Source: a virus
Taxonomy: Duplodnaviria > Heunggongvirae > Uroviricota > Caudoviricetes
Strand: one strand, 5' to 3'
Length of the DNA stretch: 12,397 bases
IMG/VR virus record: IMGVR_UViG_2619619132_000012
Both the position numbers and the translations under genes were made by a program. Below the pieces are notes generated by a model. The model did not search any database. It was not told the DNA's origin and saw only the letters and a program-made list of their open reading frames with translations. Shown here in pieces: positions 1 through 11,945 of this stretch. Position 1 is the stretch's first letter; each line of letters opens with the position of its first letter.

Positions 1-1293
<1,293 letters not shown>

Positions 1294-1409
1294 TACCCAA
1301 TTTTTCTGAATCTAAAAAGCGCCTGCGGGCGCTTTAAGTAGAGGTTTAATCATTTGAAAATAAATGGATTTTATTTTTAAGTGTCCATATAACGTCCATC
1401 TTTGAATGC

Positions 1410-1450
1410 AAAAAGCCCACAGCTTCTATGCTGTGGGCTTTGTTTTTTGG
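1410..1450. terminator. rho-independent terminator downstream of serS, probably bidirectional
   Basis: Stem gcccacagc (1415-1423), loop ttctat, stem gctgtgggc (1430-1438), then tttgttttttgg; A-run upstream makes it usable from either strand. Confidence 0.6.
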
Positions 1451-1472: not shown

Positions 1473-1506
1473 AAAAAGAAAACCCGCAGTTTTTACGCTG
1501 CGGGCT
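1473..1506 (-). terminator. rho-independent terminator for the minus-strand hok transcript
   Basis: On the minus strand: stem cccgcag, loop cgtaaaaa, stem ctgcggg, followed by ttttctttttgg; lies about 95 nt downstream of the hok stop. Confidence 0.5.
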
Positions 1507-1598
1507 TGTTGTTCACGTCAACTGGAAATAGGGTGCCTTTTCGACCTTTACCCTGGCAACCGATTGACGGGGAAGTTGCCTTCCCCGTCGCGGTTTCC

Positions 1599-1739
1599 TT
1601 ACTGCTTACACTGTAAGAACGCCGCAAACTCCGCTCCCCAGAAACTCATCCGTATTTCACACAGCGAACCGTGCAGCATCCAGATGATGAGGATTGCCGT
1701 CACGCAGAATGTGATGGCCGTAAGCGATTTTTGCGACAT
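1599..1739 (-). CDS. Hok-family type I toxin (small membrane peptide), 46 aa
   Basis: Hand-translated, absent from the ORF track (too short): MSQKSLTAITFCVTAILIIWMLHGSLCEIRMSFWGAEFAAFLQCKQ. Hydrophobic N-terminal helix plus the SLCEIR motif and AAF block as remembered for plasmid R1 Hok (…[22 protein letters not shown]…). AGGAG sits 8 nt upstream of the ATG. Confidence 0.75.
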   Translation of the reverse strand: MSQKSLTAITFCVTAILIIWMLHGSLCEIRMSFWGAEFAAFLQCKQ

Positions 1740-1842
1740 AGCGCTTGCTCCTTTTTCGGGGAGGCGCTAACCTATCACTTGCTGAGGGTAGATGGTTAGG
1801 GCCTCGGGTTAACGTTAAAGTTGACTCGGGGCCTTTCCACAT
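1657..1842 (-). CDS. mok-like overlapping reading frame (translational coupler for hok)
   Basis: 61-aa ORF starting 103 nt upstream of hok in a different frame and ending inside hok, the arrangement known for mok/hok. No sequence homology asserted. Confidence 0.4.
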   Translation of the reverse strand: MWKGPESTLTLTRGPNHLPSASDRLAPPRKRSKRYVAKIAYGHHILRDGNPHHLDAARFAV

Positions 1843-1930
1843 CTGGCCTTCGGGTATTCCCTCCGACCATCAGCCGAAAGGCACCCGCGCGTAATCTATC
1901 GCTTTTTTGTTACTCCGGCAATTCTGCCTG

Positions 1931-2191
1931 TTAATTCTGAGGTAAAGGCAAACTCATCTGATTGTTTCCCCTGTGTGAAGCTGGCAGCTCATGCCACGGG
2001 ATACCTTCTGAAGAGTGAACGCCGGAGGCGTGTTTTGATGTGAATTTATGGAAAGCTTCCAGTGTTGAGAAGCATACGCCGCATTCCAGATTGTTACACT
2101 GGTAATACTTTTGCCGCACGGTGTTTGAATCATTTTCCGGACGACTGGTGCGGATACGGGCAGATGCGCCACAAAGCGGACAACGGAACAT
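1931..2191 (-). CDS. ogr: Ogr/Delta-family zinc-finger late transcription activator
   Basis: 86-aa ORF MFRCPLCGASARIRTSR…YQCNNLECGVCF…; the CxxC…CxxxxC motif and N-terminus resemble P2 Ogr as remembered. GGGAGG SD 6 nt upstream. Sits immediately downstream of D as in P2. Confidence 0.8.
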   Translation of the reverse strand: MFRCPLCGASARIRTSRPENDSNTVRQKYYQCNNLECGVCFSTLEAFHKFTSKHASGVHSSEGIPWHELPASHRGNNQMSLPLPQN

Positions 2192-2231: not shown

Positions 2232-3341
2232 TCACTCTGTTTCCGCTATCCATTCCGGGATTTTTGCCTCAAGCTCAAGCTGCGTGGTAAAACCGCTGTT
2301 ATCAATGGTGTGCTCGGCTTTTGCAATGATCCAGTCCTGATTATCAATCTCGCTTTTAAATCCTGTTACCGTGCCATGCATTTCGGGGTAGAGTTCTGCA
2401 CGTCCACGCGCCAGCGTGATGGAGAATGATGCGGCTCCGCGTTGTAGTTGCTGCCACTTTGCCGCCGCTGCGCGTCTTGCTGCCTGCTCGTTCTGATAAG
2501 TCTTGCGTAACACAAACACATTGCCTTCCGCGCCTTCCATATAATCACCTTCACGGCTGCTGCTTTTCTCCTTTTTGGGTTTTGGCGGTTTACGGCGTTT
2601 CACGCTGACTTTTTTCTTTTTCCCGTAATTAAGATCAAGCCAGTAAGCGCGTACCCCCGTATACGCTTCGCGGTCAGCAATGCGGAACTGATGGCGATCG
2701 CCGCTGCTGCGTGTGATGGCAAACGATGGCAACGGCTGGCCCTGTGCGTTCACGCCACCGCCGGGCATGATGAATAACAGATTACCGCTTTTTACCGTGG
2801 TGATTGCGCCCAGCATTTCCGCCATGCGCGTAAGGAAGGACATATCGCTTTCTTCGGTCTGGTCGGCGTGGTCGATTTCGATATCCATCAGCATTTCGCT
2901 GATTTGCGGTTTCAGACCGTACCGATGAGCGATGGCGGATACCACGCGCTCAACGGTCACATCATGCCAGGACACCTCACGTTTAACGTTAAATTCATCC
3001 CGAAAATCTGCGCTTCTGGCTGAAACCGTCAGCCTGTCCGGCGGTCCTTCGTGAGCGATTTCATCAACAATGTAAGTGCCTTTTTCTGTCAGCGGTTCGC
3101 CTTTCCAGCCAATGAGAACCGTCAGACGCGCGCCCCGTGGCGGTAGCTGCAACTGACCATCCGCATCATCCAGCGTGATGGTGAGCTGGTCCGCTTCAAA
3201 TCCCCGGTTGTCGGTCAGTGACAGACTCATCAGGCGCTCTGCCACGCCGGACAGCGTTTCCCCCTCCGCGAGAATATCAAAATCCGGCATTTTCACGGGG
3301 TCTGTGCTCTGACTGAGCAATTGCATGGTGGTGTTGGTCAT
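2232..3341 (-). CDS. D: P2 gpD-like tail protein (late control gene D)
   Basis: ORF track 2232..3362; start moved to the ATG at 3339-3341 (MTNTTMQLL…), preceded by GGGAGGGAAAG. Translation resembles P2 gpD throughout (LSLTDNRGFEADQL, SARSADFR, lysine-rich KKKKVSVKRRKPPKPKK linker, SGFK…QDWLIAK C-terminal block). Confidence 0.9.
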   Translation of the reverse strand: MTNTTMQLLSQSTDPVKMPDFDILAEGETLSGVAERLMSLSLTDNRGFEADQLTITLDDADGQLQLPPRGARLTVLIGWKGEPLTEKGTYIVDEIAHEGPPDRLTVSARSADFRDEFNVKREVSWHDVTVERVVSAIAHRYGLKPQISEMLMDIEIDHADQTEESDMSFLTRMAEMLGAITTVKSGNLLFIMPGGGVNAQGQPLPSFAITRSSGDRHQFRIADREAYTGVRAYWLDLNYGKKKKVSVKRRKPPKPKKEKSSSREGDYMEGAEGNVFVLRKTYQNEQAARRAAAAKWQQLQRGAASFSITLARGRAELYPEMHGTVTGFKSEIDNQDWIIAKAEHTIDNSGFTTQLELEAKIPEWIAETE

Positions 3342-3497
3342 CTTTCCCTCCCTGTGCGGCATGGTCGCATGTGCGTGCGGAGTGGGTTACTGCTTTTTGT
3401 TGTCGCCGTGGCGGGAGAACGGCGCAGGGGTGAGATTACGCGCGTGGTGGGTGATGATTGTTGCCGAATCATTTAACGGATACAAGGGGCTGAAGCT

Positions 3498-9077: not shown

Positions 9078-9106
9078 AAAACCGCTAATGGTCAGATTAG
9101 CGGTTT
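9078..9106. terminator. bidirectional hairpin between convergent U and invertase
   Basis: aaaaccgctaat-ggtcag-attagcggtttt; the stem overlaps the invertase stop codon (9097-9099), with A/T runs on both sides. Confidence 0.5.
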
Positions 9107-9696
9107 TCATTTTCCTGAGTCTGCCTGGTTGTTTCTTCAGCCTGTATATCGCCTACAGGGTGATAACGATAAATCGTCGATATGCCGATGTCGTAAATGA
9201 TCGCCAGTTGTTTCCTGTCATGACCGTTTTTAATCAGCCTCGCTATTTGCTCGTGTTGTTCTTTTGTCAACTTCGGGCGACGTCCGCCAATGCGTCCTTG
9301 TGCGCGTGCTGCTGCCAGCCCGGCCAGTGTACGTTCTACAATTAATTCACGTTCCATTTCGGCTAAAGCCCCCATGACGTGAAAAAAGAAACGCCCCATG
9401 GGTGTTGACGTGTCAATGCTGTCCGTCAGACTACGGAAATTAACACCTTTTTCCCGCAATTCCTCAATAAGCGTGATCAGGTGTTTCATACTTCTGCCCA
9501 GTCTGTCCAGCTTCCAGACAACCAGCGTATCTCCTTCTGATAGCGTTCTGAGCAGTTTTTTCAATCCCGGTCTGGTTGATTTCGTTCCGCTGATTTTATC
9601 TTCAAAAATCAGTTCACATCCTGCGCAGTTCAGTGCATTGCGTTGTAAATCCGTGTTCTGGTCGTTTGTTGACACACGAATATAGCCAATTTGCAT
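9097..9696 (-). CDS. serine DNA invertase (Hin/Gin/Pin/Cin family), copy 1
   Basis: Start set at MQIGYIRVSTNDQNTDLQRNAL… (AGAGGA SD), not the longer 9825 ORF. Strong resemblance to Pin/Gin as remembered: catalytic-Ser motif GYIRVST, VVWKLDRLGRSMKHLI, SLTDSIDTS.PMGRFFFHVMGALAEMERELI.ERT, C-terminal HTH. Confidence 0.93.
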   Translation of the reverse strand: MQIGYIRVSTNDQNTDLQRNALNCAGCELIFEDKISGTKSTRPGLKKLLRTLSEGDTLVVWKLDRLGRSMKHLITLIEELREKGVNFRSLTDSIDTSTPMGRFFFHVMGALAEMERELIVERTLAGLAAARAQGRIGGRRPKLTKEQHEQIARLIKNGHDRKQLAIIYDIGISTIYRYHPVGDIQAEETTRQTQENENR

Positions 9697-9769
9697 AAAA
9701 AACATCCTCTTTGTTTCGTGAAAAATACAGAGTTGGTATAGGTAGGGATAAAAACGAAAACGTTGGTTT
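9259..9769. repeat. left arm of a perfect inverted repeat (pairs with 11887..12397)
   Basis: Reverse complement matches 11887..12397 at every stretch compared by eye (position sum 21656); first mismatch is 9770 vs 11886. Left limit is set only by the window end on the partner arm. Confidence 0.85.
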
Positions 9770-10280
9770 AGGAGAAGGCTCGGCGCTACCCGTTGGTGTG
9801 CCTGTTCCGTGGCCCACCGCCACACCGCCAGCAGGCTGGTTAAAGTGCGACGGGCGCGCCTTTACAAAAGAACAATATCCTGTTCTGGCCAGAGTCTACT
9901 CGACCCTCCGTCTTCCCGATTTGCGCGGTGAGTTTATCCGTGGATGGGACGACGGGCGCAAAGTTGATACAGGACGTAAGTTGCTGTCCGCACAAGGGGC
10001 AACGCTGTTAAGAACAGCAATGCTGGATTATTATAACCAGGACACTACGGGAACCTCGGGGATAGTCGGCATGGGATTCAACAATGAAGATTCCATTACA
10101 GACCTTCGTGAGGGCAGCTTTAAAATGCCGGACGGGACAACATTCAGCAATCCTGTCATGGCAATGTCAGACAATGGTATGCAGGCTACTATTCTGACCT
10201 CTATCAGAAGCGGGTATGCGAAGGGTATCACTGTCAGACCCCGTAGCATTGCACTTAATTACATTGTGAGGGCAGTTTAA
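9711..10280 (+). CDS. tail-fibre C-terminal cassette A (promoterless segment)
   Basis: Open frame from 9699, no credible start or RBS; conserved junction block GLGEGSALPVGVPVPWPTATPPAGWLKCDG…LPDLRGEFIRGWDDGRK then a variable C-terminus ending NYIVRAV. Confidence 0.8.
   Translation: MFREKYRVGIGRDKNENVGLGEGSALPVGVPVPWPTATPPAGWLKCDGRAFTKEQYPVLARVYSTLRLPDLRGEFIRGWDDGRKVDTGRKLLSAQGATLLRTAMLDYYNQDTTGTSGIVGMGFNNEDSITDLREGSFKMPDGTTFSNPVMAMSDNGMQATILTSIRSGYAKGITVRPRSIALNYIVRAV
9751..9776. other. putative invertase crossover site A (hix/gix-like, 12-2-12)
   Basis: aaaacgaaaacg-TT-ggtttaggagaa; resembles hix (ttcttgaaaacc-AA-ggtttttgataa) in the AAAAC…GGTTT core around a central dinucleotide. Inverted relative to sites B and C. 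Confidence 0.5.
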
Positions 10281-10894
10281 TGAGTAACACTGCAGTTCTG
10301 GATGAAAACGGTATCGCCACTGTAGCGGGCGATATCACTGTATATCACTATGACGAGGAAACCCGGGAATACACCTCATCCTCTGTGGAGTATCTCGCCC
10401 TTGGGGTGGGTACTCCGGCACATTCGTGCGCCGATGCACCGCCGGAGGCAATTTCGGGTTACGTGGTTTGCCGGACTGCCACGCTGAACGGGTGGGAGCA
10501 TGTGCCTGATCACCGCGGCGAGACGGTATACAGCACGGAGAACGGTAACCCTGTTCTGATTACCCAACCGGGTGATTACCCGGCGGACACCACCACAAAA
10601 CAGCCAGCCACGCCATGGGATACCTGGAACGGTGAGGCGTGGGTAACCGATACTGAACGGCAGCGAGCCGCAGAACTGGAGGTTGCCAGACAGCAACGCC
10701 AGCAACGGGTGAAACAGGCGATGGCGTCAGTCGATCTTATCAACCTCAAACTGCGTGCTGGTCGCAGTCTGACACCAGAAGAAACGGCAAAACTGAACGC
10801 CGTGCTGGATTATATCGACGAGCTGAACGCACTGGATATCAGCACGGCACCTGAAATCAGCTGGCCGGAAGCGCCACTGGCACTTGCCAGTTGA
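10280..10894 (+). CDS. tail-fibre assembly chaperone (Tfa / Mu U / P2 G-like)
   Basis: 204-aa ORF; start overlaps the cassette A stop (TAATG); motifs HVPDHRGETVY, WNGEAWVTDTE, DISTAPEISWPEAP match the tail-fibre assembly family. Confidence 0.88.
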   Translation: MSNTAVLDENGIATVAGDITVYHYDEETREYTSSSVEYLALGVGTPAHSCADAPPEAISGYVVCRTATLNGWEHVPDHRGETVYSTENGNPVLITQPGDYPADTTTKQPATPWDTWNGEAWVTDTERQRAAELEVARQQRQQRVKQAMASVDLINLKLRAGRSLTPEETAKLNAVLDYIDELNALDISTAPEISWPEAPLALAS

Positions 10895-10900
10895 ACGGTA

Positions 10901-11384
10901 TCACGCCGCCCTCACGATATAGTTAAACGCGATATTGCGGGGGCGGGTTATGTTAAAGAATGCTCCGTTTAATTCGGCTTTTGCGCGACTGTTTGTTCCA
11001 CCCAGAATTACGTACCACAAATAATCGCTACGGTAATTCCCCGCAAACACCTTATCGCCGCCATAGTCAATATTATTTCCGTTACTCATGTACGAGATAT
11101 CAAGCGAAGAATCGTTATCGTCATGACCGCCGACCAGTGTACCTTTCTGCCATGAAAGCAACTTACGCCCCTCGTCAATCTTGCGCCCGTCGTCCCATCC
11201 ACGGATAAACTCACCGCGCAAATCGGGAAGACGGAGGGTCGGGTAGACTCTGGCCAGAACAGGATATTGTTCTTTGGTGAACGTAGCTCCGTTGCACTGT
11301 AACCAGCCTGCTGGCGGTGTGGCAGTGGGCCACGGAACAGGTACACCAACGGGCAGCGCCGAGCCTTCCCCCAAACCAACGTTT
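10901..11384 (-). CDS. tail-fibre C-terminal cassette B (silent, no start)
   Basis: Frame opens immediately after the cassette C stop codon (TAA at 11385-11387) in the same frame: KNVGLGEGSALPVGV…; same conserved block, different variable tail ending NYIVRAA. Confidence 0.75.
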
Positions 11385-11391
11385 TTATGCG
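11366..11391. other. putative invertase crossover site B
   Basis: ttcccccaaacc-AA-cgtttttatgcg; inner half-site and central dinucleotide match sites A and C, outer half differs. Confidence 0.45.
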
Positions 11392-11945
11392 GCCCTTACG
11401 ATGTAATTAAACGCAACATTGCGGGGGCGCATTGATATCCATGCCCCGGTAAAATTATCCTCCGCTGTCCTTTGAGTACCCATTATGGAGTTATCTGCTG
11501 ATGCAGGAACATAATCGCTATTATTTCCTGCTTTAGGATTAGCTGGGTTTCCAACGGTTATAACAGAATCAGCAGTAGCAAAAGCGATACCTACTTTGAC
11601 ATTAGTATTCAGATCGTAACCGTAATAATCCTGCAAAGCTGTACGAATAAATGTTGCAGCCTGACCACTTAGCAATGAACGCCTCGTATCAACTTTGCGC
11701 CCGTCGTCCCATTCACGGATAAACTCACCGCGTAAATCAGGAAGACGGAGGGTCGGGTAGGCTCTGGCCAGAACAGGATATTGTTCTTTTGTAAAGGCGC
11801 GCCCGTCGCACTTTAACCAGCCTGCTGGCGGTGTGGCGGTGGGCCATGGAACCGGTACACCAACAGGCAATGCAGAGCCTTCCCCCAAACCAACGTTTTC
11901 GTTTTTATCCCTACCTATACCAACTCTGTATTTTTCACGAAACAA
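11385..11945 (-). CDS. tail-fibre C-terminal cassette C (promoterless segment)
   Basis: 186-aa frame with the same N-terminal junction block as A (protein identical through …KEQYPVLAR) and a distinct variable C-terminus ending NYIVRAA. Confidence 0.8.
   Translation of the reverse strand: MFREKYRVGIGRDKNENVGLGEGSALPVGVPVPWPTATPPAGWLKCDGRAFTKEQYPVLARAYPTLRLPDLRGEFIREWDDGRKVDTRRSLLSGQAATFIRTALQDYYGYDLNTNVKVGIAFATADSVITVGNPANPKAGNNSDYVPASADNSIMGTQRTAEDNFTGAWISMRPRNVAFNYIVRAA
11880..11905. other. putative invertase crossover site C
   Basis: ttcccccaaacc-AA-cgttttcgtttt; reverse complement of site A apart from the outer fibre-side half. Confidence 0.5.

What the first reader, a model, noticed from the sequence alone, without database searches (positions are those of the whole stretch)
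1599..1842. Intact hok/mok-type type I toxin locus between serS and the prophage end, missing from the ORF track
A 46-aa ORF on the minus strand has the Hok hallmarks (transmembrane N-terminus, SLCEIR, AAF), a strong SD, an overlapping mok-like frame and a terminator at about 1473-1506. A Sok-like antisense RNA would be expected on the plus strand around 1780-1870. It sits at the chromosome/prophage junction, so it may belong to either, and it appears uninterrupted whereas chromosomal hok loci are often inactivated.
Basis: partly seen in the sequence, partly recalled or inferred. Interest (0 to 1): 0.55.

Follow-up and report, generated by a model that had tools for sequence, protein, structure and literature searches.

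The report
Prophage-borne Hok toxin with Sok antisense
This is a real, intact copy of a well-known small "host-killing" toxin gene with its antisense RNA antidote, carried as the last gene of a P2-like prophage; it is already annotated and catalogued, so it is ordinary except that it seems to lack the usual helper reading frame (mok).

Summary
The 46-aa ORF (1599-1739, minus strand) is a genuine Hok/Gef toxin: Pfam HOK_GEF 29.9 bits (cut-off 22) and PHROG 251 at E 1e-22. RefSeq annotates it (WP_000078916.1), and about 957 of 5,426 complete E. coli genomes hold most of this stretch. The identical peptide (72_1621) was cloned for a toxicity assay in a 2026 preprint and is not among its three non-toxic constructs.

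It belongs to the prophage, not the chromosome. The att core is the serS terminator (1316-1335), repeated 36.6 kb away beside the integrase. Free P88-like phages carry the same ogr-hok arrangement.

The RNA anatomy is hok/sok-like. A roughly 410-nt mRNA (1886 to ~1475) is closed by a 5'-3' fold-back, supported by coupled covariation in 50 copies. A roughly 57-nt Sok-like antisense RNA (1780-1836, plus strand) has promoter boxes matching annotated sokW.

33 of 50 distinct copies have no leader ATG, and no frame stays open. It is not positioned like mok.

The characterised hokW-sokW is a different locus; the nearest Stx-phage relative is a largely unannotated copy beside lom.

Verdict: confirmed, already known, low interest. 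How ribosomes reach the hairpin-sequestered hok SD without mok is unresolved.

The parts
1316..1335 (.). att core (attL copy): AAAGCGCCTGCGGGCGCTTT, which is the serS terminator hairpin and marks the prophage boundary
   Evidence: K-12 identity ends at 1335. The same 20 bp recur as a direct repeat next to the integrase and dmsA, 36.6 kb away, in the identical genome NZ_CP059332.
1412..1441 (+). Strong hairpin followed by GTTTTTTGG, inside phage DNA between the att core and the hok terminator. It is a candidate terminator for serS read-through, which would otherwise be antisense to hok.
   Evidence: Terminator scan. Fold of -23.1 kcal/mol, z -4.9. The role is inferred.
1475..1886 (-). Predicted full-length hok mRNA (+1 = G1886; about 412 nt)
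   Evidence: The 5' end coincides with the start of the Rfam RF01794 hit and lies 7 nt after the -10 box. MFE is -172.6 kcal/mol, z -6.35. The unit is conserved in 50 distinct copies.
1473..1507 (-). Intrinsic terminator of the hok mRNA (CCCGCAG...CTGCGGG followed by TTTTCTTTTT)
   Evidence: Compensatory changes in the stem are seen in alignment A3.
1531..1546 (-). fbi box (GGUCGAAAAGGCACCC), which pairs with the mRNA 5' end
   Evidence: MFE. RNAalifold. In A3, 97.7% of cells pair and 0 of 500 shuffles reach the covariation score. In A4, 87.4% of cells pair in the helix.
1599..1739 (-). hok CDS, 46 aa, identical to WP_000078916.1 and to peptide 72_1621
1739..1769 (-). Hairpin that sequesters the hok SD (GGAG, 1748-1751) against GCCUCC (1762-1767). 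The stem base reaches the start codon.
   Evidence: -13 kcal/mol. The outer stem pairs in 99.7% of cells, with wobble-only changes. It is predicted closed in every state tested.
1745..1773 (+). Promoter of the Sok-like RNA: -35 TTGCTC (1745-1750), 17-nt spacer, -10 TAACCT (1768-1773)
   Evidence: Same boxes and spacing as upstream of the annotated sokW of 933W, which reads TTGCCT-17-TAACCT. Kept in 16 of 16 copies and 48 of 50 copies. It is below the threshold of the generic promoter scan.
1780..1836 (+). Predicted Sok-like antisense RNA, about 57 nt: an 18-nt single-stranded 5' tail, then a 16-bp hairpin (1798-1835) containing G.U pairs, then a UUU run at 1834-1836 that overlaps the 3' arm of the hairpin
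   Evidence: -26.8 kcal/mol, z -5.2 on the plus strand, against -12.2 for the minus strand of the same interval. The same asymmetry is seen in 16 of 16 copies. Expression was not tested.
1761..1805 (-). Target hairpin predicted in the 3'-processed mRNA. It presents the complement of the Sok 5' tail in a 14-nt loop.
   Evidence: In A4 the helix pairs in 83% of cells, with 5 pairs changed on both sides.
1828..1840 (-). Internal box (GUGGAAAGGCCCC) that pairs with the 5' end once the fbi is removed; the counterpart of ucb
   Evidence: In A4 the helix pairs in 91% of cells, with 4 pairs changed on both sides. The same 5' columns also covary with the fbi box.
1874..1886 (-). tac-like 5' end (GGGUGCCUUUCGG)
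1893..1921 (-). Putative hok promoter: -35 TTGCCG (1916-1921), 17-nt spacer, -10 TAGATT (1893-1898)
   Evidence: Read directly from the sequence. The -10 box TAGATT/TAGAAT is conserved at the same distance in the copies. It matches 8 of 12 consensus positions, so the generic scan misses it.
1657..1842 (-). It is present here but is a minority allele.
   Evidence: No family hit in Pfam, NCBIfam or PHROGs.
1931..2191 (-). ogr/Delta late-gene activator; its stop codon lies 10 nt before the hok -35 box (context)
   Evidence: Pfam Ogr_Delta, 52.4 bits. 74 of 80 viral contigs have an Ogr homolog just upstream of hok.
2232..3362 (-). P2 gpD-type tail/baseplate hub protein (context)
   Evidence: Pfam Phage_GPD, 63.1 bits.

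Best explanation
The locus is an intact hok/sok-family type I toxin-antitoxin module. It is carried as the terminal cargo gene of a P88-like (Xuanwuvirus, P2-like) prophage integrated into the serS terminator.

Shown by sequence and comparison:
- The minus strand encodes a ~410-nt hok mRNA. Its 5' end pairs with a box about 340 nt downstream (tac:fbi), which closes the molecule.
- The same 5' end can instead pair with an internal box (+47 to +59).
- The hok SD sits in a conserved hairpin.
- The plus strand carries a promoter homologous to the sokW promoter, followed by a hairpin and a short U-run. This predicts a ~57-nt antisense RNA complementary to +51 to +107 of the leader.

From the literature:
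- The identical 46-aa peptide was cloned for a toxicity assay and is not among the three constructs reported as non-toxic.

Inferred by analogy with R1 hok/sok and hokW/sokW:
- The full-length mRNA is stable and inert.
- Slow 3' trimming removes the fbi. The 5' end then refolds and a hairpin exposes the Sok target.
- While the prophage is transcribed, the labile Sok RNA pairs there and the duplex is destroyed.
- When Sok supply stops, the processed mRNA is translated and Hok damages the inner membrane. Supply could stop through loss of the element, host transcription shut-off by an infecting lytic phage, or prophage induction.

Unlike R1, hokW and hokA, this subfamily (Hok cluster 72) has no conserved mok frame. 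How ribosomes open the hok SD hairpin is not known.

Biological role (inferred): my first choice, about 0.5, is a moron that favours the lysogen or prophage through addiction or abortive infection. A lysis-helper role at induction, as reported for hokW, is about 0.3.
For: - Toxin identity: Pfam HOK_GEF is above its gathering score and PHROG 251 gives E 1e-22. 67 homologs are all named Hok/Gef. The RefSeq annotation is WP_000078916.1.
- Toxicity: the identical peptide 72_1621 was cloned as LRP137. 42 of 45 tested homologs were toxic and 72_1621 is not among the three exceptions.
- Prophage ownership: K-12 identity ends at 1335, while P88 and Chuche identity starts at 1473 and 1466. The 20-bp att repeat flanks a 36.6-kb P2-like prophage with its integrase. 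74 of 80 viral contigs have ogr just upstream, and 47 of 80 end 3 nt after the hok stop. The same D-ogr-hok order occurs in Salmonella prophages.
- RNA structure: MFE z -6.35 with a 5'-3' closing helix. The fold-back pairs in 97.7% of cells, with 24 cells changed on both sides against 8.9 in shuffles and 0 of 500 shuffles reaching it.
- Two states in 50 copies: the closed state pairs in 86.8% of cells and the open state in 87.7%, against 33-54% when partners are slid. The 5' variable box covaries with both partners.
- Sok-like RNA: its promoter boxes and spacing match annotated sokW and are kept in 48 of 50 copies. Its hairpin is far more stable on the plus strand.
- Leader homology: Rfam RF01794, which models the hok leader in the sense orientation, hits 1726-1886 at E 4.6e-8.
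Against: - No expression data exist for either RNA.
- The Rfam hit (42.8 bits) is below its gathering score (59). It also scores below R1 (87) and hokW (113.5).
- The NCBIfam HokA and Hok models score far below their cut-offs.
- There is no conserved mok. In R1, mok translation is mandatory for hok translation (PMC9841398).
- The SD hairpin is predicted closed in the full-length, processed and Sok-blocked states in 7 of 7 copies. The translation route is therefore unexplained.
- Most of the covariation reflects one split, between E. coli-type and Salmonella-type copies, so it amounts to few independent events.
- The Sok terminator has only three U residues.
- Chromosomal hok loci tested earlier did not mediate post-segregational killing (as cited in the preprint).
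Confidence: 0.85

Rival explanations
1. It is a classical three-gene hok/mok/sok locus. On this view the 61-aa ORF (1657-1842) acts as mok: its translation opens the hok SD hairpin, and Sok represses it.
For: - In this window the ORF does run through the hok SD and start codon, ending 80 nt into hok.
- Its AUG (+45) lies 4 nt outside the Sok-complementary stretch, so a Sok duplex could block initiation.
- The AUG is predicted to open after 3' processing, with P(unpaired) rising from 0.18 to 0.66.
- The hok SD stays closed in every predicted state, so some unmasking device is needed.
Against: - Only 9 of 80 viral contigs with the identical toxin have a leader ORF that reaches hok. Most stop at -45 or -30, and 4 have no ATG.
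- 33 of 50 distinct copies have no leader ATG at all.
- No frame is stop-free back to -57 in most copies.
- The ATG is not at the mok position, which is about -57, inside the target of Sok's 5' tail.
- The G of this ATG is a covarying stem position (C14-G47 against U14-A47), so RNA structure alone explains it.
- The ORF has no family hit.
Confidence: 0.12
2. It is an inactive relic. The peptide can kill when forced, but the native locus is no longer expressed or regulated, as was reported for several chromosomal hok loci.
For: - Chromosomal hokA, hokB and hokC did not mediate post-segregational killing in earlier work (as cited in the preprint).
- The locus lacks mok, and its SD is predicted always closed.
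- Clearly decayed relatives exist: L252-L259 have an uncompensated 5' end and have lost the Sok promoter.
Against: - The promoter boxes, tac, fbi, internal box, SD hairpin, Sok promoter and Sok hairpin are all kept across E. coli, Salmonella, Klebsiella and Citrobacter copies, with compensatory changes.
- 48 of 50 copies keep an intact 46-codon ORF.
- The unit travels with viable phages (P88, Chuche) and is duplicated in tandem.
Confidence: 0.08
3. It is a chromosomal, serS-linked hok locus that merely abuts the prophage.
For: It lies only about 300 bp from the serS stop codon.
Against: - The empty K-12 site has no hok, and identity ends at 1335.
- The att core repeat brackets the locus together with the prophage.
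- Free phage genomes carry it next to ogr.
Confidence: 0.01

Closest known systems
Hok cluster 72, peptide 72_1621 (Escalera-Maurer et al., bioRxiv 10.1101/2025.08.07.668861); RefSeq WP_000078916.1 'Hok/Gef family protein'; PHROG 251
   Same: The 46-aa sequence is identical. The cluster is listed as abundant. The peptide was cloned as LRP137 for the toxicity assay. The preprint reports that hok is enriched in prophages and occurs in multi-copy islets.
   Different: Nothing differs at the protein level. The preprint explicitly did not analyse Mok, Sok or the mRNA, so the RNA anatomy and the absence of mok described here are not covered by it.
Second hok unit beside lom in Stx phages (933W AF125520 45491-45841; Sp5/VT2-Sakai and many other Stx-phage records)
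   Same: 85% nucleotide identity over 1556-1907 and 74% amino-acid identity. It has the same tac, fbi, Sok promoter and SD hairpin.
   Different: It sits in lambdoid phages next to lom rather than in a P2-like phage next to ogr. The region 3' of the fbi differs. It is unannotated in many of the records listed and, as far as I found, uncharacterised.
hokW-mokW-sokW of Sp5/933W (Takada et al. 2021, PMC8621323)
   Same: It is a prophage-borne hok/sok. The Sok promoter has the same boxes and spacing (TTGCCT-17-TAACCT). It shows 5' GGGUGC... / ...GCACCC end pairing. It offers a tested precedent for a phage-related role: HokW is made on induction and phage release halves without the locus.
   Different: It is a different locus. 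HokW is 51 aa and only 28% identical. It has a mok ATG at -57, inside the target of Sok's 5' tail. Its leader scores 113.5 bits on RF01794, against 42.8 here.
hok/mok/sok of plasmid R1
   Same: It has a membrane toxin with the LCE motif and a cis-antisense Sok. It uses tac:fbi closure with an alternative tac:internal-box pairing. A further hairpin follows the fbi.
   Different: 33% peptide identity. In R1, mok is required for hok translation and Sok targets the mok initiation region. Here there is no conserved mok. R1 is a plasmid-stability element, not phage cargo.
hokA/sokA of E. coli (best NCBIfam match)
   Same: It is the closest named subfamily by profile (NF007290, E 2e-8). It shares motifs such as WM..SLCE and AAFL.CK.
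   Different: It scores 34 bits against a cut-off of 89, so this is not a HokA equivalog. tblastn gives 42.5% identity. K-12 hokA is annotated with a mokA and is disrupted by IS150.
tisB/istR-1 and zorO/orzO (type I systems without a leader ORF, in which the antitoxin binds far upstream of a structured initiation region)
   Same: They share only a geometry. The antisense target (+51 to +107) lies 30-90 nt upstream of a hairpin-sequestered SD, and no coupling ORF is conserved. This comparison rests on my own knowledge of those systems.
   Different: There is no sequence relationship. In those systems the antitoxins are trans-encoded or divergently encoded, and a standby-site mechanism has been shown experimentally. 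Nothing of that kind was tested here.

Membership tests
Hok/Gef toxin family (Pfam PF01848) | Profile match at or above the curated gathering score | tested here: met
   29.9 bits against a cut-off of 22, E 4.1e-7, covering residues 7-44 of 46.
Hok/Gef toxin family (Pfam PF01848) | A peptide of about 50 aa with an N-terminal hydrophobic helix and the conserved C..T, L-C-E and downstream E residues | tested here: met
   Residues C12, T14, L26, C27, E28 and E37 correspond to the conserved C16, T18, L30, C31, E32 and E41 of the family logo. The hydrophobic stretch is LTAITFCVTAILIIWML.
Hok/Gef toxin family (Pfam PF01848) | Toxic to the cell when expressed | not testable with these tools
   The identical peptide 72_1621 (construct LRP137) is in the preprint's test set. 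42 of 45 homologs were toxic, and it is not among the three listed non-toxic ones.
NCBIfam HokA equivalog NF007290 / Hok subfamily NF007279 | Score at or above the curated cut-off | tested here: not met
   34 bits against 89, and 21.6 bits against 73. This is a separate subfamily, cluster 72.
PHROG 251 'MokW-like host killing' | Profile match | tested here: met
   E 1.3e-22, 80.6 bits, full length. Despite the name, the match is to the Hok peptide and not to a Mok extension.
[quoted passage not shown] | hok mRNA leader matching Rfam RF01794 at its gathering score | tested here: not met
   42.8 bits against 59, although E is 4.6e-8 and the whole model (1-157) is matched. The model is the sense-strand leader.
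[quoted passage not shown] | 5'-3' fold-back (tac:fbi) closing the full-length mRNA | tested here: met
   87-98% of cells pair, four pairs have compensatory changes, and slid controls pair in 28-48% of cells.
[quoted passage not shown] | Alternative pairing of the 5' end with an internal box after 3' processing, with coupled covariation | tested here: met
   91% of cells pair. The same 5' columns (10-14) covary with both the fbi box and the internal box. The 3' processing itself is not testable here.
[quoted passage not shown] | Cis-encoded short antisense RNA (Sok) with its own promoter and terminator, overlapping the leader | tested here: inconclusive
   Sequence evidence is strong. The promoter boxes and spacing equal those of annotated sokW and are kept in 48 of 50 copies. 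The hairpin is stable only on the plus strand. No transcript data are available, and the U-run is short.
[quoted passage not shown] | mok leader ORF that starts in the Sok target and is translated through the hok initiation region | tested here: not met
   There is no start codon at the mok position. 33 of 50 copies have no leader ATG, and only 3 of 50 have an ATG-ORF that reaches hok. No frame stays open back to -57 in most copies.
P2-like (Peduoviridae, Xuanwuvirus/P88-like) prophage cargo | Lies within the att-bounded element and is shared with free phage genomes | tested here: met

The most novel reading that the evidence does not exclude
Cluster-72 hok loci are a mok-less branch of the hok/sok family. 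They include this one, its Salmonella, Klebsiella and Citrobacter relatives, and the copy beside lom in Stx phages. On this reading, Hok synthesis is controlled directly on an mRNA whose own SD is locked in a hairpin. Sok would act 30-90 nt upstream, for example by blocking a ribosome standby site in the target-hairpin loop or by triggering RNase III decay. It would not act by shutting off a coupling leader ORF. That would make the textbook requirement for mok a feature of only some Hok lineages.
Probability: 0.4. Interest if true: 0.45.

Novelty: already known. Interest (0 to 1): 0.2.

Why it matters
As a gene call it adds nothing new. The toxin is annotated in RefSeq and in phage records, is catalogued as Hok cluster 72, and has been cloned for a toxicity assay.

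Three points have modest value.

- The module is phage cargo at the ogr/att end of P88-like prophages. About a sixth of complete E. coli genomes hold most of this stretch, including O25b:H4 strains. Questions about its role, whether prophage addiction, exclusion of other phages or help with lysis, are therefore questions about a very common lysogen trait.
- The characterised hokW-sokW is not this locus. Annotation labels such as 'MokW-like' invite that confusion. Stx phages carry a second copy of this type that is largely unannotated.
- This subfamily keeps the hok RNA folding pathway but has no conserved mok. If confirmed, that would show mok-coupled translation is not universal in the family, and it would give a natural system for asking how a hairpin-locked toxin SD is opened.

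Tried and rejected
1. I assumed the 85% Stx-phage relative was the characterised hokW. That is rejected. The primers from PMC8621323 and the 933W annotation place hokW at 58460-58734. Our relative is a separate copy beside lom, unannotated in 933W.

2. I argued that canonical mok is in frame with hok while ours is not. I withdrew this as a criterion. The R1-like copy and hokW have the mok ATG at -57, in frame. But the R1 coordinates in PMC9841398 imply -58, out of frame. Position relative to the Sok target is what distinguishes them.

3. I tested an 'anti-anti-SD switch'. In this model GAGGC (+81-85) competes with the SD for GCCUCC, and Sok sequesters GAGGC. It is attractive in the window, and one copy changes three columns together (56, 87 and 127 in alignment A3, the last being 128 in A4). 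However, partition-function folding shows the SD closed in the full-length, processed and Sok-blocked states in 7 of 7 copies. I do not adopt it.

4. I looked for a leader ORF with a non-AUG start. No frame is stop-free back to -57 in most copies.

5. My first filter for alignment members required GGGTGCC and GGCACCC. That discarded exactly the variant copies, so I redid the alignment with them included as A4.

6. The generic sigma-70 scan found no promoters. The boxes were found only by homology with sokW and by conservation.

7. A scan of viral contigs with a 15-nt 5'-end pattern returned mostly chance matches. Only 7 of 120 loci held a hok.

8. PADLOC has no model that matches the peptide.

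9. Codon-position variation (27, 19 and 34 variable sites at positions 1, 2 and 3) shows only weak purifying selection. It is also confounded by RNA-structure constraints, so I did not use it as evidence.
Full report
**Observation**

The window opens with serS (1-1293, plus strand). A 46-aa ORF lies on the minus strand at 1599-1739 and reads MSQKSLTAITFCVTAILIIWMLHGSLCEIRMSFWGAEFAAFLQCKQ. It is preceded by GGAG, 8 nt upstream. A 61-aa ORF at 1657-1842 overlaps it in another frame. A terminator-like hairpin with a T-run lies at 1473-1507 (-16.3 kcal/mol, z -4.4).

**Is it a Hok?**

- Pfam HOK_GEF scores 29.9 bits against a gathering score of 22.
- PHROG 251 matches the full length at E 1.3e-22.
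- The NCBIfam HokA and Hok models match only far below their cut-offs, at 34 against 89 bits and 21.6 against 73 bits.
- The peptide is 33% identical to Hok of R1, 28% to HokW, and 42.5% by tblastn to K-12 HokA. It is a distinct subfamily.
- A search of 5.8 billion proteins returned 67 relatives in E. coli, Shigella, Salmonella and Klebsiella. All that carry a name are called Hok/Gef. Their alignment keeps M1, Q3, K4, G24, C27, E28 and the C-terminal AE.AA.LQCK.

**Already known**

- About 957 of 5,426 complete E. coli genomes hold most of the 938-bp stretch. In the records listed, RefSeq annotates the ORF as 'Hok/Gef family protein', WP_000078916.1.
- Phage records (P88, Chuche, Xuanwuvirus P884B11, 500465-2) annotate it as 'MokW-like host killing'.
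- A 2026 preprint (10.1101/2025.08.07.668861) catalogues 1,264 Hok peptides in 61 clusters. The identical sequence is its 72_1621, in an abundant cluster, and was cloned as LRP137.
- That preprint found 42 of 45 tested homologs toxic, and 72_1621 is not among the three exceptions.
- It also reports that hok is enriched in prophages and occurs in multi-copy islets. It states that Mok, Sok and the mRNA were not analysed.

**Chromosome or prophage?**

- K-12 identity ends at 1335, inside the serS terminator. Identity to phages P88 and Chuche begins at 1473 and 1466.
- In the genome identical to the window, the 20-bp sequence AAAGCGCCTGCGGGCGCTTT (1316-1335) recurs as a direct repeat 36.6 kb away. 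It sits between a phage integrase and dmsA, and the two copies bracket a complete P2-like prophage.
- The hok unit is therefore phage DNA. It is the last cargo gene between ogr and attL, and the 3' end of its mRNA lies about 140 bp inside the boundary.
- Of 80 viral contigs encoding the identical peptide, 74 have an Ogr homolog just upstream and 47 end 3 nt after the hok stop.
- Salmonella P2-like prophages at several other integration sites show the same gpD-ogr-hok order.

**Closest relatives**

The window shares 85% nucleotide identity over 1556-1907 with Stx phages. This relative is not the characterised hokW-sokW of Sp5/933W (PMC8621323). That locus is annotated at 58460-58734 of 933W and encodes a 51-aa HokW beginning MKQQKAM. 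Our relative lies at about 45491-45841, beside lom, and is unannotated in 933W and many other records.

**RNA anatomy**

- Rfam finds nothing at gathering thresholds.
- With relaxed filters, RF01794 'sok' matches 1726-1886 on the minus strand at 42.8 bits (gathering score 59), E 4.6e-8.
- Calibration on an R1-like plasmid copy (87 bits) and on hokW (113.5 bits) shows this model is really the hok leader in the sense orientation, from +1 to the hok AUG. The hit therefore marks a divergent hok leader that starts at 1886.
- That position lies 7 nt after a TAGATT box with TTGCCG 17 nt upstream. The box is conserved as TAGATT or TAGAAT in the relatives.
- The 414-nt RNA from 1886 to 1473 folds at -172.6 kcal/mol, z -6.35. 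GGGUGCCUUUCGGCU at the 5' end pairs with GGUCGAAAAGGCACCC at +341-356. R1 and hokW have the same layout, including a further hairpin after the fbi.

**Covariation**

- In 16 copies, RNAalifold recovered the fold-back. Four pairs had compensatory changes.
- On that helix, 97.7% of cells pair. There are 24 cells changed on both sides against 8.9 in shuffles, with 0 of 500 shuffles reaching that number. Slid controls pair in 28-47% of cells.
- My first filter had excluded copies with variant ends. I rebuilt the alignment with 50 distinct copies, including them.
- The closed-state leader plus fold-back pairs in 86.8% of cells. The open state predicted after removal of the fbi pairs in 87.7%. Slid partners give 33-54%.
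- The variable 5' box (columns 10-14) covaries with both the fbi box and an internal box at +47-59. This coupled covariation is the signature of the hok folding pathway.
- Two caveats apply. Most of the signal comes from one split between E. coli-type and Salmonella-type copies. The structures were also derived from one of the aligned sequences.

**The antisense gene**

- Upstream of the annotated sokW lie TTGCCT, a 17-nt spacer and TAACCT, with the start 7 nt further on. The window has TTGCTC (1745-1750), a 17-nt spacer and TAACCT (1768-1773).
- That predicts an RNA starting at 1780/1781. It has an 18-nt single-stranded tail and a 16-bp hairpin, and it ends in a UUU run at 1834-1836.
- The plus-strand RNA folds at -26.8 kcal/mol (z -5.2). 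The minus strand of the same interval folds at -12.2, because several pairs are G.U on the plus strand and C.A on the minus strand.
- The promoter boxes and this asymmetry hold in 16 of 16 copies. The boxes hold in 48 of 50.
- After 3' processing, the leader is predicted to form a hairpin that shows the complement of the Sok tail in a 14-nt loop.

**mok**

- In the R1-like copy and in hokW, the mok ATG lies 57 nt upstream of hok, inside the target of Sok's 5' tail. The R1 coordinates in PMC9841398 give 58 nt. That paper shows mok translation up to the hok SD is mandatory in R1.
- Here the corresponding position reads CCATCT. The frame of hok itself is closed by a TAG at -30 in 28 of 50 copies, and in no copy is it stop-free back to -57.
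- The 61-aa ORF starts at -103, beyond the 3' end of the Sok-complementary stretch.
- Among 80 viral contigs with the identical toxin, the ATG opens a 10-24-codon ORF that stops upstream of hok in 67 cases, usually at -45 or -30. It reaches hok in 9 and is absent in 4.
- Among 50 distinct copies, 33 have no ATG anywhere in the leader and 3 have an ATG-ORF that reaches hok.
- No frame is stop-free back to -57 in most copies: 0, 14 and 13 of 50 for the three frames.
- The G of the E. coli-type ATG is itself a covarying stem position.
- I conclude that a mok is not a conserved part of this subfamily. A mok-like role for the window's own allele cannot be excluded. Its AUG is predicted to open on processing, with P(unpaired) rising from 0.18 to 0.66. 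I give that 0.12.

**What remains unexplained**

The hok SD lies in a conserved hairpin (-13 kcal/mol; the outer stem pairs in 99.7% of cells). I tested a switch in which GAGGC (+81-85), which lies inside the Sok target, competes with the SD for GCCUCC. One copy changes three columns in concert in a way that keeps both pairings. But partition-function folding keeps the SD closed in the full-length, processed and Sok-blocked states in 7 of 7 copies. I do not adopt the model. How ribosomes reach the SD without mok is open.

**Mechanism and role**

These are inferred by analogy with R1 and hokW.

- The full-length mRNA is stable and closed.
- Slow 3' trimming then lets the 5' end refold and exposes the Sok target.
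- Labile Sok pairs with it, and the duplex is degraded while the prophage is transcribed.
- Hok is made when Sok supply stops.

For hokW, induction removes sokW, HokW reaches the inner membrane, and phage release halves without the locus. For this locus I rate a role in addiction or abortive infection at about 0.5, and a lysis-helper role at about 0.3. The ogr stop codon lies only 10 nt before the hok -35 box. Late read-through could therefore give 5'-extended transcripts that cannot form the tac:fbi closure. This is an untested idea.

**Verdict**

It is wrong about mok, and the ownership question is resolved in favour of the prophage. The locus is already known, so interest is low (0.2). The most novel reading not excluded is mok-independent control in Hok cluster 72 (probability 0.4, interest 0.45 if true).

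Noticed in passing
L004 1501-1851 (= AF125520.1 45491-45841, beside lom); most of the 195 phage records are Stx phages: Stx phages carry a second hok/sok-type unit of this same subfamily beside lom. It is separate from the annotated hokW/mokW/sokW at 58460-58734 and is left unannotated in 933W and many other records.
   Followed up: partly
L024 hok starts at 1505, 2003 and 2501; also L022, L023, L244, L245, L248, L250 and L251: Salmonella carries tandem arrays of two or three complete hok units of this subfamily, about 495-500 bp apart and each with its own leader and fbi. L024 and L025 sit after gpD-ogr of a P2-like prophage.
   Followed up: partly
L252-L259 (gene at 1501-1641 in each): A common E. 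coli variant looks decayed. Its 5' end reads GGACACC without a matching change in the fbi. The Sok promoter boxes and hairpin are lost. The peptide carries W20L, M21I and F41I substitutions.
   Followed up: partly
window 1726-1886 (-); L007 432-603 (+); L008 13611-13785 (-): Rfam RF01794, named 'sok antitoxin', matches the strand that encodes hok in R1-like, hokW and this locus. It spans +1 to the hok AUG. In effect it models the hok leader, not the antisense RNA.
   Followed up: yes
window 1316-1450: The phage integrates into the serS terminator. At attL the hairpin is kept, but its T-run is replaced (GCGCTTT then AAGTAG). A strong hairpin with a T-run lies on the plus strand at 1412-1441, inside phage DNA. 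There it would stop serS read-through, which would otherwise be antisense to hok.
   Followed up: no
window 9097-11945: A serine recombinase (Resolvase plus HTH_7 domains, 9097-9825, minus strand) lies next to three tail-fibre C-terminal cassettes with Collar domains on opposite strands, and a tail-fibre assembly gene. This looks like an invertible host-range switch of the Gin/Cin kind.
   Followed up: partly
L018 and L019 about 2330-2500; L144 and L202 (A4 columns 327-367): Some copies are rearranged. L018 and L019 have the tac-containing 5' end replaced by unrelated sequence. L144 and L202 have an internal duplication of about 40 nt in the 3'-UTR hairpin region.
   Followed up: no
L227-L230 (gene at 1501-1641): A copy of this subfamily lies next to a TraI-type relaxase gene. 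The subfamily is therefore not confined to prophages.
   Followed up: no
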